Source: Eledone cirrhosa (taxonomy: Eukaryota). From it: a DNA stretch of 64,000 nt. Location: positions 158,162,001-158,226,000 of the forward strand of contig OZ024740.1 of assembly GCA_964016885.1 (NCBI GenBank), read 5' to 3'. The position numbers and the translations under genes are program-made. Below, in pieces: positions 8,565 to 44,056 of this stretch. The notes under the pieces were generated by a model. It was not told the DNA's origin. It did no database searches and saw nothing but the letters and a program-made list of their open reading frames with translations. Numbering within the stretch: the stretch's first letter is position 1; each line of letters begins with the position of its first letter.

Positions 8565-9349
8565 GAATAATCGAGAATCGGAATATCAGCCGCCCACGAA
8601 ATCACGATAAACAATATCCGATATGTGTGGCAGAGGGCTCAATAATTTGGATAAATCAGAGCTATAACTATCGTTAAAATACCAACACATAGAGATCATG
8701 CCTAAAATCACCCGTGCAGCCGAAAAAGAACGACCAGGAAGATTCGGGTCACTCAAATAAAATATCAATAAATTAATAAATTAAATGAATGTAAAAAACT
8801 CACCCGGACCCGCTAGAAAGATGTTAAATCTAGCTTCTTGGGTTTCTGCAATTCCTTAATCCAATCACTATCAGCCCACATAAAAAATATATAAAACTTC
8901 TAGAGAAGGGATGAACGCGGAAAGGCTTCATCAACGAGTATTTCGCCCAATAATACAGAGGGGACCCAAAGCCAAACGCACATGGTATTCAGCAAGGGAG
9001 GGAACCCCTATATTAGCGAAAGAATTCGGTGATGTGTAAATTATGTAAGAATACAAATTATCACATATCAAATCAGAGTGCTCAACAGACGTGTTAAAAT
9101 AAACAAGAGCTATTCATCAGTCAATAAGATCAACAAAAAAAAATCATCAATAAAATTAACTGGTCAATAGCTATATATATATATATTCAGGTTTGAGGAT
9201 CACCACTGGATAGAGCTGGTCAATTCCGTATGGTCAATCTCAATGTAATAATATGGAGAGTACTCAACGTAAAGCAGTTCAACCGTCTTTGTTTTTGTAG
9301 TTGGTGGTGCTAGTACGGAGTTAAATATTATAATATATATATAAGCAAA

Positions 9350-10201
9350 CGGGATATTTAATTTGTTGGTAATTCAACAAATATAAATGTTTATAACTGA
9401 TTCGATGTATAACTTGTATGATAAACTATATAACTTCGCTAAATTAACAATATTCTGGAAACATTTTCAATGTTGGAACAAAATATTTGAATCTAAAAAT
9501 TGTTCTCCTCTTACAACTTGAACTACATCTTTTTCTTAAACTTTTTTTATATAAAATGTAACATCAACACTCTTCGTAACTCATGAAAAATATTAACAAA
9601 TACTTGTGGTTTATTTCTATAAAATCATCAATAATACTTATACTTGCACAATTGTTAATCTATATAGATATTTATATACTTACAACCTATTGTAATTTAA
9701 TAAGATAAAATGTTTTACTTCATATAATCTAATTATTTATATATACAATATTATAACTCATAATATAGCTAAATAATTTTTTTAAATTCTGGAACCATAT
9801 TCCCCCATTCCTACAAACTGTTAATTCTTTATAAATTAACGTAAATACAAGCCGTTCTTTCTTTCCCTTTCTTCTTCCTATACATACATAAATATATCCT
9901 AATAATTAGTTAAATCTACCTAGTGTCTAAAAATAACGTTTTTTTCAGCCCTATACCTCAACCTCATTTGCATACTCATCTTAATAATTTGAAATGTTTG
10001 ACTTTTCTTCTCTTTCCCTTCTTTCCTTTAATATCCAGGAAAAACTTGAACCGTTAAGTTCTTCTTGGTTATGTCAATATTTATGAAACAAACTTTGTAT
10101 TTTATCTGATGAGAGGGTATCAAAGTTTTGGTTCCCTTGAAATATATATAATAGAATAAATATGGTTTTATAAATATAGTTTCCATTTATTTAATATCAT
10201 T

Positions 10202-10205
<4 letters not shown>
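9350..10205 (+). mobile_element. Highly decayed 3' end of a Penelope-like element
   Basis: Weak GIY-YIG-like residue (NNTYTCTIVNL near 9629), then an HHR and (TA)n; 3' end shared with 43857-43929. Confidence 0.4.
10098..10158 (+). ncRNA. Minimal type I hammerhead ribozyme
   Basis: ATTTTAT-CTGATGA-GAGGG...CCCTT-GAAA-TATATA-TA-ATAGAAT; stems I and II pair; palindromic stem III. Confidence 0.85.
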
Positions 10206-10267
<62 letters not shown>

Positions 10268-10305
10268 GTATATATATATGTATATATATCTATATATATA
10301 TCTAT

Positions 10306-11148
10306 ATAAAATATTAAACAAATAATGAATAAACAATGAAACAGTTCCTTATATTAAACAAAAAAAGTTCATTATTTAACGATCGTTTCTAGGATATATA
10401 TGTGTTAGAATTGGCATGCATATTCAACAGATCTATGTACAAAATTATACAAAATTATACAAACTATCAAGATTAAATATACATACCAACACATATATAC
10501 ACCGTCTTCAGAAATAATGAAATATATTTATTGATAATAACAACAATTCAAAATTTCAGGTCCGTTTGGGAACAAAATTGACCAATGAAAATACAAAAGG
10601 TTTAATGCAGTTCGGTGTGTGTATATACATGTAACTACCCTTACACATATTTTACAAAAATGTATGCACAACTTGTATACGCATACCAAAAGGATGGATG
10701 CAAATACAAAATTTCAAGGTTAATGTCTCTGTAAGTTTATAATGCACAGATAAGATGCGTATAGACACATAAATATGAAATAAGTGTATACACATATTTT
10801 CATACTCACACATATCCGTACAATCACACACACACGCGCGTATATGCATAAACATACACATAACTACGAACATACAAACACACACACACCCCCACTCACA
10901 TATATATATGTGGATATAAAATCCTAAGCACATGGATATTAATTCACTCACATAAACACTGGCACACACATTTAGATCAAGATACAGAAATTAGGTGGGA
11001 GGGGGGGAGAGGTCAGTATTCAACGGTTTGGGCAGACTGCTTAATATAGATGTATCTATAAACTAAGAAAATAAAAATAATAAATAATAAATAAACATTA
11101 AAAAGGAAAGAAAAGAAAAAGAAAAAAAGAAAAAAGAAATATATCAAG

Positions 11149-11198
<50 letters not shown>

Positions 11199-11348
11199 CA
11201 CATATATACACACATACATATATATATACACACACATACAAACACATACATACATATACACACATCCACACTTAGAACATACATACACACACATATATAA
11301 ACATATACATATACACACATACATACATATACACACATACATATAAAT

Positions 11349-11417
<69 letters not shown>

Positions 11418-11722
11418 CATACATACACATATAATCACACATACTATATAGACACACATATATATACACACATACACGCACATATACATACACTTACATA
11501 CTTATATACATACAGATATACACATACATACCTATATATACACACAAATACATACAGACATACATACATACATACAGACAAATACTTACGCATCTATATA
11601 TCGGTATATACATACAAACACCACTACACTCTCACACAACACAGACATACAAAGAAAAAGGTATATACCTATACAGATATACATATACAAATAGAGAAAC
11701 ATATACATATATATATATATAT

Positions 11723-11757
<35 letters not shown>

Positions 11758-11915
11758 CATATACATACACATATACACACACACACATACATACACATAC
11801 ATACATGTACACACACATACACCTACACGAACATACACATACACATATATAAAGATATATATACACACAGACACACACATACACACACACACATATATAT
11901 AAAAAAAAAAAATAA

Positions 11916-11964
<49 letters not shown>

Positions 11965-12291
11965 CATATACATACACACATACATAGACATATATGTACA
12001 TACATACACATACATAGATGCATACACACACATACATACATATATATATACACACATAGACATATACATACATACACACACAACATACATACACACATAT
12101 ATACTCATACATAGAATTAGATATATAATCATACATACATACGCACTTACATATACTCATATATACAAATACATACGCATCCATATATGCGTATATACAT
12201 AGAAACACCACTACACCCTCACCCAACTCAGACATACAAAGAAAAAGGCATATACATATACATATATACACGCATTAATAGAGATATATAT

Positions 12292-12330
<39 letters not shown>

Positions 12331-12545
12331 CACTTATATATATATACCCACACACACATACAACCATAAATACACATACAAACACCCACATATACATATA
12401 TATACACATATATATATATATACACACACATAAAAAACAGACATGCACATATATATTTTTTTACACATATATATACACATATATATACATATACACACCC
12501 TCACATATACACACATACACATAAGTTATATTATAATAATAAATA

Positions 12546-12604
<59 letters not shown>

Positions 12605-12675
12605 CGAATATAGACATATATACACACATAGATATACATATACATATATATACACATACATATACACACACACAT
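10306..12675 (-). repeat. Left arm of long inverted repeat (inverted copy of the PLE 3' region)
   Basis: Reverse complement of 15843-18278; the ORF track shows the same 105-aa ORF at 10652..10969(-) and 17615..17932(+). Confidence 0.95.
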
Positions 12676-12917
12676 TTAAGGAAAGTTCTAATATGTTTTT
12701 TGTTTTTTTCAATTTCTGAAAGGCTAAGGTTGTTAGAAAGAAGAAGACAGTCATCACGATATAAACCACCTTTGAGGTGGGGAAAGGAGGCATTTATGTT
12801 GAAAAGGAGAAAGAGGCCCACAAGATCAGTAATTTGGGCGGAATCGCTTGAACCCATAGTAATATCAAATAGATTACTATATGTGTTTCTGGTCCAGTAT
12901 TCATTCTGAAGACTATT
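12675..12917 (-). pseudogene. Inverted RT core segment of the Penelope-like element
   Basis: FDITMGSSDSAQITDLVGLF...GLYRDD...IRTFLK. Confidence 0.9.
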
Positions 12918-12919
12918 CA

Positions 12920-14245
12920 TTTAAAGACTATTATAATCTTAATATTACTTTTGAAAAAACAAGTAAAGTAGTAAATTTCCTAGATATAACTTTAGATTTA
13001 GCTACGGGTATCTATCAACCTTACCATAAACCAAACCAAAACTTACATTACATACACTCACAATCTAATCACCCTAAATCTATCCTTAAAAACCTTGCAT
13101 ATAATATATCACTTAGAATTTCTAACCTTTCTTCTAACCAAGATGTATTTGATAAAAATGCGACCTTCTATAACGAAGCTCTAGATAGAAGTGGCCACAA
13201 AAATAGATTAGAATATATACCTTCTACTAAAAATACTGAAAGCATACAACCTAATATTACCAACAAACACCAAATGAAAAGTACACACCTAAATGCCACC
13301 CACACTATACCCCAAAATACCAAATCTTCTAATATAAAGTATAGTAACTCTCAAAAAACTACTCATCATACAACTCTAATAAATATTAATAATAAAACTC
13401 CTAATAAAAAGGATAAAACACCTAAATCTACAAATATAACTAAAAATGGTTGTGGTGAGATCATTAACATTAATCCTCCTAGTAAAAATCACGATACAAC
13501 CTATAAAAATAATAAAAATAATAAACAACATAGAAACCGTAATAGACGGGTTACTTGATATAATGCTCCATTTAATTTACAAATTAAGGATAATATTGCT
13601 AAAAAATTTTTTTATATCCTAGAGAAAAACTTCCCGCCAAACCACAAATACCATCAAATCTTAAATAGGTCTACAGTTAAATTCTCATACTCTACAACAA
13701 ATAACATAAAACAAAATATAAGTGCCTATAATGCATATAAATGTAAGAAAACCATAAGTATACCACCAGTACATCAAATTAACCATAATATCTCCTCAAA
13801 TACAGAATTAACGAAAGGTTGTAACTGTAGAAACAAAGCAAACTGCCCATTAAAAGGGAATTGTCTTGTTAACAACATAGTCTATAAATGTAATGTTAAA
13901 ACTAAAGATTCTATTTGCTCATATATAGGAGCTACCTCTAACAATTTTAAGACAAGGTTTAATACCCACAAGCATAGTTTTAAAAATGCCGCACTGGCTA
14001 ATACAACATCTCTAGCAGAAAAAATCAATAGTTATAAAAATAAGAATATAGAATATGATTTGACCTGGAGTGTGCTCAAAAGAGCCACCCCTTATCAAAA
14101 TAATAGAAATGAATGTAGATTATGTTCCCAAGAACTATTTGAAATAATGAAATCTAAGGATATCCTATTAAATAAACGACAGGAATTGATTATATCGTGT
14201 AATCATAAACTAAAAAAAACATTTAAATATTATAAACCTAATTAA
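12920..14245 (+). pseudogene. Penelope-like RT C-terminal half + GIY-YIG endonuclease (disrupted)
   Basis: NFLDITLDL, YIHSQSNHP, T*YNAPF (TGA at 13556), CNCRNKANCPLKGNC, IVYKC...YIGAT...FKTRFNTH, CRLC..E, LN.R.E....CNH. Confidence 0.9.
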
Positions 14246-15567
14246 TAACATTATTTTAGAAATTAATTTAATTTAAATGTTAGTTAACCTATAAATTTAA
14301 TTTAATTAAAATTCTATTACAGATGAGATTATAAAATATTATGTAATCATAAATTGTGAAAAAACCTTTAAATATTACTAATATATACTTAGTAATTTAA
14401 TTTATAGATTAATTTTAATTTATTTAAACCTTTTATTATAATTCTTTTACAGATAAAATATAACAAAATATCGTGTATCCAATGACAGAGAAATAATTTT
14501 TAGTATTATAGACCTAATTAATATACATTTTAGAAATATATTTATAATTTGGTTTTAATTTTAGTCAACCTAAAAATTTAATTTAATTGGCTTAAAATTA
14601 GTATCCTTATACAGACGAATTGCAGAATGTCATGTAATCATAGAATGGGATGTGTTTTGGATATATACCTAGTTAATATATTCTTTGCAATTTTTGAAAA
14701 AATATGTATATGTATATGTGTATGTGTATGTGTATGTGTGTGTATATGTGTATATATGTATGTATATATGTATATATATGTATATATATATGTGTATGCA
14801 TATGTATATGTATATGTATTAATTTTGATTTCTATTTGCATATAATTATATTCTGCTATTGATAAAATACAATATCTGTTTTATTTATTATATACCTAAT
14901 TAACATATACTATAGAAATAAATATATAATTTTTAATTTAGTTAACCTATAATTTATATTCTACTACCGATGTAATACTTTATTTGTTTTTTCCCTATTA
15001 CTAAATTCATTTCCTAATATTGATACCATAACGTTATTAACTTTAATTTAGTTATACTATAATTAATACTCTACTACTATTTAACTTCAAAATTCTGCTT
15101 CAAATATTATAAACCTAACTAATTTACACCTTAGAAATCAATATGTTAACTATCTTTAGTTTAGTTAACATATAATTAATGGTATACTTATTTATTTTGA
15201 AATGCATAAATTTTGCCTTATTTCTTGTTTATTGTATTTCCTAACACTGAAACTATGTAAAAAAGCATACATTGGATCCAGATACGGATAATATTCTATG
15301 TTTCTTGAAACATATATTTACTATAATCCCCTTCTCCAACCCCCCCCCCCCATTCCCCCATACTATTATCATCTGTGTTTGTAAGCGTGTATGTATGAAT
15401 ATATATGTAGGTAGGTGTATATATGTTTGGGTATTTATATCTGAATATAAAAATACATATATGCGCATGCAAATAAGAATGTAAGATTGTGTGTGTATAT
15501 ATATGTGGGTATGTATGTGTATATGTGTATATATGCATGTGTATATATATGTGTATGTGTATGTGTG

Positions 15568-15662
<95 letters not shown>

Positions 15663-15842
15663 ATGTATGTATGTATATGTGTGTGTGTATATATATGTAC
15701 GTCTCTCTATTTATATGTCTATCTTCGTATCTATGTGGATATATGTGTGTGTGTGCATGTATACACATATATGTGTTTATGTGTATATGTGTATATGTGT
15801 ATATATGTGTGTGAGCACACACATATATATGTGAGTGTGTAT

Positions 15843-15913
15843 ATGTGTGTGTGTATATGTATGTGTATATATATGTATATGTATATCTATGTGTGTATAT
15901 ATGTCTATATTCG

Positions 15914-15974
<61 letters not shown>

Positions 15975-16189
15975 TATTTATTATTATAATATAACTTATG
16001 TGTATGTGTGTATATGTGAGGGTGTGTATATGTATATATATGTGTATATATATGTGTAAAAAAATATATATGTGCATGTCTGTTTTTTATGTGTGTGTAT
16101 ATATATATATATGTGTATATATATGTATATGTGGGTGTTTGTATGTGTAATTATGGTTGTATGTGTGTGTGGGTATATATATATAAGTG

Positions 16190-16230
<41 letters not shown>

Positions 16231-16557
16231 ATATATATCTCTATTAATGCGTGTATATATGTATATGTATATGCCTTTTTCTTTGTATGTCTGAGTTGGG
16301 TGAGGGTGTAGTGGTGTTTCTATGTATATACGCATATATGGATGCGTATGTATTTGTATATATGAGTATATGTAAGTGCGTATGTATGTATGATTATATA
16401 TCTAATTCTATGTATGAGTATATATGTGTGTATGTATGTTGTGTGTGTATGTATGTATATGTCTATGTGTGTATATATATATGTATGTATGTGTGTGTAT
16501 GCATCTATGTATGTGTATGTATGTACATATATGTCTATGTATGTGTGTATGTATATG

Positions 16558-16603
<46 letters not shown>

Positions 16604-17165
16604 ATATATATATCTTTTTTTTTTTTTTATATATATGTGTGTGTGTGTATGTGTGTGTCTGTGTGTATATATATCTTTATATATGTGTATGTGTATGTTC
16701 GTGTAGGTGTATGTGTGTGTATGACTATATATGTATGTGTGTATGTGTGTATGTGTATATATATCTATGTGTGTGTACATGTATGTATGTGTATGTATGT
16801 GTGTGTGTGTATATGTGTATGTATATGTATGTATATATATATATATATATATGTGTATATATATATATATATATATGTATATGTTTCTCTATTTGTATAT
16901 GTATATCTGTATAGGTATATACCTTTTTCTTTGTATGTCTGTGTTGTGTGAGAGTGTAGTGGTGTTTGTATGTATATACCGATATATAGATGCGTAAGTA
17001 TTTGTCTGTATGTATGTATGTATGTCTGTATGTATTTGTGTGTATATATAGGTATGTATGTGTATATCTGTATGTATATAAGTATGTAAGTGTATGTATA
17101 TGTGCGTGTATGTGTGTATATATATGTGTGTCTATATAGTATGTGTGATTATATGTGTATGTATG

Positions 17166-17234
<69 letters not shown>

Positions 17235-17384
17235 ATTTATATGTATGTGTGTATATGTATGTATGTGTGTATATGTATATGTTTATATATGTGTGTGTAT
17301 GTATGTTCTAAGTGTGGATGTGTGTATATGTATGTATGTGTTTGTATGTGTGTGTATATATATATGTATGTGTGTATATATGTG

Positions 17385-17434
<50 letters not shown>

Positions 17435-18278
17435 CTTGATATATTTCTTTTTTCTTTTTTTCTTTTTCTTTTCTTTCCTTTTTAATGTTTATTTATTATT
17501 TATTATTTTTTATTTTCTTAGTTTATAGATACATCTATATTAAGCAGTCTGCCCAAACCGTTGAATACTGAACTCTCCCCCCCTCCCACCTAATTTCTGT
17601 ATCTTGATCTAAATGTGTGTGCCAGTGTTTATGTGAGTGAATTAATATCCATGTGCTTAGGATTTTATATCCACATATATATATGTGAGTGGGGGTGTGT
17701 GTGTGTTTGTATGTTCGTAGTTATGTGTATGTTTATGCATATACGCGCGTGTGTGTGTGATTGTACGGATATGTGTGAGTATGAAAATATGTGTATACAC
17801 TTATTTCATATTTATGTGTCTATACGCATCTTATCTGTGCATTATAAACTTACAGAGACATTAACCTTGAAATTTTGTATTTGCATCCATCCTTTTGGTA
17901 TGCGTATACAAGTTGTGCATACATTTTTGTAAAATATGTGTAAGGGTAGTTACATGTATATACACACACCGAACTGCATTAAACCTTTTGTATTTTCATT
18001 GGTCAATTTTGTTCCCAAACGGACCTGAAATTTTGAATTGTTGTTATTATCAATAAATATATTTCATTATTTCTGAAGACGGTGTATATATGTGTTGGTA
18101 TGTATATTTAATCTTGATAGTTTGTATAATTTTGTATAATTTTGTACATAGATCTGTTGAATATGCATGCCAATTCTAACACATATATATCCTAGAAACG
18201 ATCGTTAAATAATGAACTTTTTTTGTTTAATATAAGGAACTGTTTCATTGTTTATTCATTATTTGTTTAATATTTTAT
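15843..18278 (+). repeat. Right arm of long inverted repeat (microsatellite-rich PLE 3' region)
   Basis: Reverse complement of 10306-12675. Confidence 0.95.
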
Positions 18279-18475
18279 CTTGACTCTGTATACCGTTTAT
18301 CTTTCACCGAAAGTGATTTTTCATTACATCTCTTCCTTCCATGATATCCGGAATACATTGAGTTCTTCATACGGATTGGACACTACCGTAAACTCTTGGT
18401 AGATTTATCTACATATATATCTATATATGTATATATATATATATGTATATATGTATATATATATATGCGTATATA

Positions 18476-23949: not shown

Positions 23950-24219
23950 ATATTTATTAAAATAACAGATTAAAGTTTAAGCAAAGAATCGCTGCTTTCA
24001 CCCTTAACGGGATCCTCTGAAACTAACAAGTCAATCTGTAAACGCAGAACTGGATATTTCAAAAAACGTTGCACGTCTTCCTGTCTTCCTCCGGTTGCAA
24101 CGTTTTTTGAAATATCCAGTTCTGCGTTTACAGATTGACTTGTTAGTTTCAGAGGATCCCGTTAAGGGTGAAAGCAGCGATTCTTTGCTTAAACTTTAAT
24201 CTGTTATTTTAATAAATAT
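23950..24219. repeat. Perfect fold-back palindrome (124-bp arms, 22-nt spacer) with ~85-nt tail, in (TA)n
   Basis: 23950-24073 is the reverse complement of 24096-24219; a non-palindromic relative lies at 44201-44330. Confidence 0.92.
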
Positions 24220-43120: not shown

Positions 43121-43192
<72 letters not shown>

Positions 43193-43350
43193 TAAATATA
43201 CACGGGTGTGCATGATTGTGTATAGAAGATTATATTAATAAGAGGAATTCCAACTTTGTCTGATTTACTCGTTTTATTTACAATCCTTTAAAATTTATAA
43301 TGGTATTATAATGAAATAGTATGGTAGAATATTAAATGTTAAGTGTTAAT

Positions 43351-43389
43351 TGAACAAGTACTTTCATGTTTTCGCAATCTTCAGGTTCA
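43351..43389 (-). ncRNA. Minimal hammerhead ribozyme (mirror copy)
   Basis: Exact reverse complement of 43463-43501. Confidence 0.75.
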
Positions 43390-43462
43390 TATTCTGTGGT
43401 GACAGTCAAGTTTGCAATTTTCAACAGTTGAAAATTGCAAACTTGACTGTCACCACAGAATA

Positions 43463-43501
43463 TGAACCTGAAGATTGCGAAAACATGAAAGTACTTGTTC
43501 A
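43463..43501 (+). ncRNA. Minimal type I hammerhead ribozyme
   Basis: TGAAC-CTGAAGA-TTGCGAAAACAT-GAAAG-TA-CTT-GTTCA; palindromic stem III AAGTACTT, very short stem II. Confidence 0.78.
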
Positions 43502-43613
43502 ATTAACACTTAACATTTAATATTCTACCATACTATTTCATTATAATACCATTATAAATTTTAAAGGATTGTAAATAAAACGAGTAAATCAGACAAAGTT
43601 GGAATTCCTCTTA

Positions 43614-43688
<75 letters not shown>

Positions 43689-43776
43689 GGGAACATAGGG
43701 AAAGGAGGGGGAGAGACAAAGAGAGCGTGTATGTGTATGTGCATGTGTATATATGTATATATATATATATATATAC

Positions 43777-43929
43777 CAATAATATTAATAAATGGAAACT
43801 ATCTTTATAAAACCATATTTATTTTATTATATATATTTCAAGGGTACCAACATTTTTGGTATCCTTGAAATATATATAATAAAATAAATATGGTTTTATA
43901 AAGATAGTTTCCATTTATTAATATTATTG
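43777..43929. repeat. Fold-back palindrome centred on the HHR stem II loop, with ~75-nt tail
   Basis: Right arm matches the 3' half of the HHR element at 10128-10200; centre at 43853. Confidence 0.9.
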
Positions 43930-44004
43930 ATATTATACTCCAAAAGAAAACTGTAGAGTGCTTCGAATCTGTTATAAATAACCAACAAATTAAATAACTC
44001 TTTG

Positions 44005-44056
<52 letters not shown>

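What the first reader, a model, noticed from the sequence alone, without database searches (positions are those of the whole stretch)
43777..44007. Fold-back palindrome that turns at hammerhead stem II
Seen: the right arm (GGTATCCTT-GAAATATATATAATAAAATAAATATGG...) belongs to the same family as the intact HHR element at 10098-10200. The palindrome centre (43853) is the stem II loop. Where the intact copy has CTGATGA, this copy has TTTC plus the reverse complement of the downstream sequence. Inference: the nascent cDNA snapped back on the ribozyme's own hairpin and primed second-strand synthesis, which offers a concrete mechanism for Penelope-type inverted pseudo-LTRs.
Basis: partly seen in the sequence, partly recalled or inferred. 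Interest (0 to 1): 0.75.

Follow-up and report, generated by a model that had tools for sequence, protein, structure and literature searches.

The report
Twin-primed Penelope ends joined at hairpin
This palindrome is two head-to-head copies of the ribozyme-bearing end of a common Penelope-like jumping gene that meet inside the ribozyme's hairpin, and because each arm carries sequence the other lacks, it was likely made from two separately started DNA copies rather than by one copy folding back on itself.

Summary
The palindrome is real: 67 perfect pairs around the stem II loop at 43853, plus an unpaired 78-nt tail on the right. It belongs to a hammerhead-bearing Penelope-like family; 6,386 such head-to-head pairs match one pattern in this genome. 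Stem II is a real but minor turning point: 58 of 6,386 spacers fit it, 2.4 times the local rate, while 3,159 have spacers that fit joins near the presumed RNA start. Pure snap-back fails here. The loop is in the left arm's polarity, but only the right arm has the tail, so neither arm can template the other. The same holds in 14 of 22 informative stem II palindromes. Best reading: both ends of a cut TA repeat prime copies from two fixed start points, and the copies join through stem II's 7-nt repeat (0.55). A later deletion between the two stems of a longer palindrome is not excluded (0.25). Inverted pLTRs, tails and junction palindromes are published. This scan reached the twin-priming reading before on other DNA of this genome.

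The parts
43777..43862 (-). Left arm: element end read on the minus strand, from the short 3' end (43777) back through stem III, GAAA, stem II 3' strand, the loop and the inner 5' strand; no CTGATGA
   Evidence: Matches the antisense arm of intact relative L069 up to CATTTTTGGTA; reads that match to 43861 continue into the intact ribozyme (63 and 102 reads)
43844..43862 (.). Inner stem II and loop: GTACCAA-CATTT-TTGGTAT; 43856-43862 can belong to either arm (7-nt overlap, one C>T change)
   Evidence: DNA hairpin -3.6 kcal/mol
43856..43929 (+). Right arm, paired part: stem II 3' strand, GAAA, stem III, stem I 3' strand, to the short 3' end
43930..44007 (+). Unpaired tail to the long 3' end, present on the right arm only
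   Evidence: the same tail closes one arm in 47 of 50 sampled palindromes
43750..43776 (.). Left (TA)n target
44008..44054 (.). Right (TA)n target; no target-site duplication can be read in the repeat
9343..9405 (-). Inverted tail of the second family copy in the window; this tail is absent from that copy's direct arm
9409..10203 (+). Direct arm of the second copy: 3' part of the element, presumed start site near 10031, minimal hammerhead near 10101-10160, short 3' end, then (TA)n

Best explanation
The palindrome is a head-to-head pair of 3' ends of a Penelope-like retrotransposon in a TA repeat, one ending at the family's short end and one at its long end, likely made as two separately primed cDNAs that joined through the 7-nt repeat of hammerhead stem II. 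Shown: two fixed ends, one per arm; the loop belongs to the tail-less arm; a 7-nt overlap at the join; a modest genome-wide excess of joins at stem II. Inferred: the element's endonuclease cuts both strands; each 3' end primes reverse transcription, one at each start point; both copies usually run to the RNA 5' end, but here both stopped or were trimmed in stem II, whose self-complementarity let the two 3' ends anneal and extend on each other. The ribozyme serves only as a homology patch (and perhaps a pause site); the result has no catalytic core on either strand and is likely inert.
For: Loop polarity versus tail at this locus. 14 of 22 informative stem II palindromes carry the loop on the tail-less arm (looser rule 27 versus 20, 25 unresolved). 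Tail on exactly one arm in 47 of 50 position-ordered palindromes and 67 of 72 stem II-region ones. Tail-less arm reaches further 5' in 22, tailed arm in 5, p=0.0015. Copies whose inverted arm is tail only, including the window's 9343-9405. Loop-less joins on TTAA in L170, L176, L183, which a hairpin could not prime. In vitro a Penelope/Poseidon protein cuts and extends both strands and starts at two internal sites bounding the tail (PMC11167929).
Against: The same sequence results from deleting the centre of a longer palindrome between its two stems, and 14:8 does not differ from the 50:50 that predicts (p=0.29). The age test was inconclusive and leaned slightly to older stem II copies (arm differences 1.53 versus 1.16, p=0.08; tail p=0.61). 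8 of 22 copies are compatible with pure snap-back. The 3' end of the left arm can form a 6-bp DNA hairpin. No read bridges this locus. No intermediate was observed.
Confidence: 0.55

Rival explanations
1. The insertion was first an ordinary twin-primed palindrome joined near the start site; the centre was later deleted between the two stem II copies, which face each other as near-direct repeats (slippage or single-strand annealing at DNA level).
For: In relative L069 both stems are present and GTACCAA and TTGGTAC recur in the same direction on either side of the centre. Predicts tail on one arm and loop from either arm, as seen. The commonest intact loop type (76 of the first 100 listed, counted by eye) is rare among stem II turns.
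Against: No clear age excess of stem II copies. The loop comparison is confounded by subfamily age and exact-match bias. Joins with short overlaps occur all along the element, so joining at insertion needs no extra step.
Confidence: 0.25
2. Hybrid: the leading cDNA snaps back on stem II, copies itself to its start, then switches to a second cDNA that supplies the tail.
For: Hairpin -3.6 kcal/mol, z -2.3; arms identical outside the stem; symmetric turns dominate the stem II bin (35 of 50 listed, by eye); self-priming was proposed for Penelope junction palindromes (PMC3846280).
Against: Needs a second, scar-free switch; still needs two priming events; does not give loop-less TTAA joins or the asymmetric majority.
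Confidence: 0.13
3. Pure snap-back: one cDNA folds on stem II and primes its own second strand.
For: Centre at the loop, perfect arms, local excess at stem II. Fits 8 of 22 informative copies.
Against: At this locus the loop-bearing strand lacks the tail; it would need later trimming of the primed end exactly at the family's short end. 14 of 22 copies show the same conflict.
Confidence: 0.04
4. Assembly or library artefact (chimeric fold-back read).
For: No listed read or contig spans the junction; another perfect palindrome lies 150 nt away.
Against: Arms end at the family's two biological ends, flanks are not mirrored, the stem has a mismatch, and dozens of independent loci with their own mutations share the layout.
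Confidence: 0.03

Closest known systems
Insertion unit of endonuclease-bearing Penelope-like elements: inverted 5'-truncated pLTR, one-sided tail, junction palindromes (PMC8557442, PMC3846280; passages read)
   Same: Head-to-head copies, tail on one end, microsatellite target, short overlap and palindrome at the inverted junction, hammerhead in the pLTR.
   Different: Here the unit is only two stubs with no ORF, the tail is about 78 nt rather than 30-40, and the join lies inside stem II. PMC3846280 explains junction palindromes by self-priming; the loop-versus-tail test here argues against that for most copies.
PAc Poseidon in vitro reaction (PMC11167929; parts 1-2 of 4 of the text read)
   Same: Both target strands cut and extended; two internal start sites bounding the tail; AT-rich target.
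   Different: That work did not describe the joining of two cDNAs in the parts read; PAc is Penelope/Poseidon, whereas this family has a Neptune-like cysteine linker.
LINE-1 twin priming (passage in 10.1101/2024.12.14.628481; abstract start of PMC2837659; details recalled)
   Same: Two primers from opposite target ends give an inverted insertion.
   Different: L1 arms usually cover adjacent, non-overlapping parts and start at a poly(A) tail (recalled); here arms overlap widely and start at two fixed internal points.
Minimal type I hammerheads of metazoan PLEs (PMC4209133; passages read)
   Same: Long helix II, palindromic helix III, location in the pLTR.
   Different: In this palindrome the CUGAUGA core is lost on both strands.

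Membership tests
EN+ Penelope-like elements | ORF with RT followed by C-terminal GIY-YIG endonuclease upstream of the pLTR | tested here: met
   Copies contiguous with the hammerhead end encode an endonuclease-like piece (IYKC..YIG) and RT pieces (YRDD); these match P0001/P0002 at E 7e-25, 1e-21, which carry RT, IVYQA..YVG and C..C/CRH motifs. Pfam named no domain; the motif reading is from recall and PMC8557442.
EN+ Penelope-like elements | Hammerhead motif in the pLTR | tested here: met
   Core CTGA(T/A/G)GA..GAAA with varied stem II in 162 matches, 92 variants; Rfam gave no hammerhead hit; cleavage untested.
EN+ Penelope-like elements | Partial tandem/inverted pLTRs with tail at one end | tested here: met
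   47 of 50 palindromes have the tail on one arm; tandem-internal pLTRs in longer copies.
EN+ Penelope-like elements | Target-site duplication | tested here: inconclusive
   Both flanks are (TA)n.
Neptune clade | Zn-finger-like linker between RT and endonuclease | tested here: met
   CNCR..NCPL..NC in translated copies; feature named in PMC8557442.
Neptune clade | RT phylogeny | not tested
   No tree was built.
Snap-back (self-primed) palindrome | One arm contains all sequence of the other (loop and tail on the same arm) | tested here: not met
   Loop on left arm, tail on right; 14 of 22 informative copies likewise.
Non-LTR retrozymes | Tandem direct monomers each with a complete hammerhead | tested here: not met
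   Inverted pair, no core; definition from 10.64898/2026.07.22.740005 part 1.
MITE-like palindrome amplified as a unit | Copies share one junction and one pair of ends | tested here: not met
   Junctions differ between loci and subfamilies.

The most novel reading that the evidence does not exclude
Penelope-like elements routinely integrate by double target-primed reverse transcription from two fixed start points on one RNA, the inverted pseudo-LTR and tail are the direct product, and the hammerhead's stem II acts at insertion as a pause-and-anneal site that joins the two cDNAs; loop polarity in thousands of genomic stubs reads out which cDNA led.
Probability: 0.45. Interest if true: 0.6.

Novelty: new member of a known kind. 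Interest (0 to 1): 0.36.

Why it matters
How Penelope-like elements build inverted pseudo-LTRs and one-sided tails is described as undefined in PMC8557442. This locus gives a simple test, loop polarity against tail side, that rejects pure self-priming for most stem II copies and supports two priming events, in line with the 2024 in vitro work. The locus itself is one of thousands of stubs and is likely inert; the stem II turn is about 1% of joins.

Tried and rejected
Rfam scan: no hammerhead hit, only microsatellite-driven miRNA matches. Raw data: 8 runs laid; none of the listed pieces bridged the junction; X5 laid nothing. Pfam and PDB searches did not name the ORF pieces; the protein atlas gave no answer. 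Arm-to-arm versus nearest-other-copy differences did not show whether both arms come from one RNA (17 lower, 4 equal, 17 higher of 38). Age comparison of stem II versus long-spacer palindromes inconclusive. Excess of perfect AAAATTTT centres (14 loop-uninformative cores) could be subfamily, mismatch repair or later correction; not used. A cap-derived G before the presumed start was weak (5 of 23 terminal versus 0 of 22 internal, p=0.049). Rejected: MITE-like amplification, retrozyme, artefact. Papers' supplements were not read and may show similar junctions.

Full report
Observation. The window holds a palindrome centred on 43853 with 67 consecutive perfect pairs (43843/43863 to 43777/43929), one G.T mismatch at 43844/43862 and a 5-nt loop. 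The right side continues unpaired for 78 nt to 44007; both flanks are (TA)n. The right arm aligns to the copy at 10098-10215. That copy shows a minimal type I hammerhead layout by inspection; its stem II is the only helix in the centroid fold. Rfam listed no hammerhead among 142 hits, and cleavage was not tested.

Family. A 171-nt query gave 2,996 first-look candidates in the genome, 40 scored. Longer copies continue at least 2.2 kb upstream of the hammerhead and encode pieces with RT and GIY-YIG-like motifs and a cysteine linker. These match two database proteins at E 7e-25 and 1e-21 whose motifs fit endonuclease-bearing, Neptune-like Penelope elements (linker feature from PMC8557442; motif reading otherwise recalled; Pfam silent). 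Copies end at two fixed points, short and long, both running into (TA)n.

Where do palindromes turn? A pattern of an anchor and its reverse complement found 6,386 loci with spacers of 0-400 nt, control 0. By spacer: 289 at 0-59, 506 at 60-140, 177 at 89-112, 58 at 99-102, the length of a symmetric stem II turn in the main subfamilies, and 3,159 at 250-330. Stem II is thus 14.5 per bin against 5.95 beside it (p=1e-7), and 35 of the 50 listed loci in that bin are symmetric stem II turns by eye. It is a real local hotspot but about 1% of joins. Of the first 50 loci in chromosome order, none has a stem II-length spacer and 40 have an arm ending within 15 nt of a recurrent ACTATCC-type site about 80 nt upstream of CTGATGA, which I take, untested, as the RNA start. 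Counts need exact anchors and are lower bounds; end positions come from alignment to 19 natural reference arms and can shift by 10-15 nt.

Test of snap-back. A strand that folds back and copies itself must contain everything in the second arm. At this locus the + strand through CATTTTTGGTA matches the antisense arm of intact relative L069, and contigs and raw reads matching to 43861 continue into the intact ribozyme. So the loop belongs to the left arm, which starts at the short end, while only the right arm has the tail. Neither arm can template the other. Among 72 palindromes turning in or near stem II (42 of the 52 loci, 30), 67 have the tail on one arm only. With a strict loop rule, 14 have the loop on the tail-less arm and 8 on the tailed arm; 14 had uninformative loops, 2 uninformative tails, and 34, including this locus, were not parsed. 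One of the 14 (L171) is doubtful. A looser rule gave 27, 20 and 25 unresolved. In the 50 position-ordered loci, 47 have one tail; the tail-less arm reaches at least 10 nt further 5' in 22, the tailed arm in 5, 17 are within 10 nt and 3 aligned uncleanly (p=0.0015).

Mechanism. Inferred: both ends of a cut TA repeat prime reverse transcription, one at the short and one at the long start point; the two cDNA 3' ends are then joined by short overlaps. Here the overlap is the 7-nt inner stem (43856-43862). Loop-less joins on TTAA in three copies fit two strands annealing, not a hairpin. This agrees with the PAc protein cutting and extending both strands and starting at two sites that bound the tail (PMC11167929, parts 1-2 of 4 read). 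Confidence 0.55.

Results against. The same sequence arises if a longer twin-primed palindrome loses its centre between its two stems, which face each other as near-direct repeats; 14:8 does not differ from the 50:50 this predicts (p=0.29), and the age test was inconclusive (p=0.08 and 0.61). Confidence 0.25. A snap-back (hairpin -3.6 kcal/mol) followed by a switch to a tail cDNA gives it too (0.13). Eight copies are compatible with pure snap-back. No listed read spans this junction. Whether both arms come from one RNA was not resolved.

What is known. Inverted 5'-truncated copies, one-sided tails and microsatellite targets are typical of these elements, and their origin is called undefined (PMC8557442, passages). 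Hammerheads in pLTRs are in PMC4209133 (passages). A search for Penelope-like plus twin priming plus inverted gave two papers whose listings are not about this; searches listed no paper on joins at stem II; supplements and subscription papers were not seen. Also seen: 10.64898/2026.07.22.740005 (part 1 of 5), PMC2377424 (passages), 10.1101/2024.12.14.628481 (passages). Earlier unreviewed notes of this scan reached the twin-priming reading on other DNA of this genome; my reading was written before that look-up, and those notes are not counted as support.

Verdict. A real, likely inert stub of a known kind of insertion. The stem II turn is a minor hotspot, the snap-back mechanism is contradicted at this locus, and two priming events are needed under every reading that survives. 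Interest 0.36.

Noticed in passing
window 43190-43621: Perfect palindrome with 195-bp arms and a 1-nt spacer from a different family; its right arm has a minimal hammerhead-like motif near 43463-43500, the centre (43426) lies about 40 nt upstream of it and not at stem II, and an unpaired stretch of about 40 nt may be a tail on the left.
   Followed up: partly
window 23950-24219: Perfect 124-bp arms with a 22-nt spacer in a TA repeat, a third family.
   Followed up: no
window 10301-18283: Nested inverted duplication of about 8 kb with arms 91-98% complementary.
   Followed up: no
L101 (G000:C1:50855677-50855984), junction: Two TTAGGG units inserted between the two arms, as if telomerase or a telomeric template extended one end before joining.
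   Followed up: no
L068, L088, L090, L103, L006 junctions: An extra G precedes the presumed start site in 5 of 23 terminal copies and 0 of 22 tandem-internal ones; weak hint of copying a 5' cap.
   Followed up: partly
L091, L064, L077, L094, L062: Symmetric turns also fall on other self-complementary words and on a hairpin upstream of the ribozyme, so stem II is not unique as a turning point.
   Followed up: partly
window 43960-43990: The tail of this copy appears to lack about 14 nt between two AATAA repeats compared with relatives.
   Followed up: no
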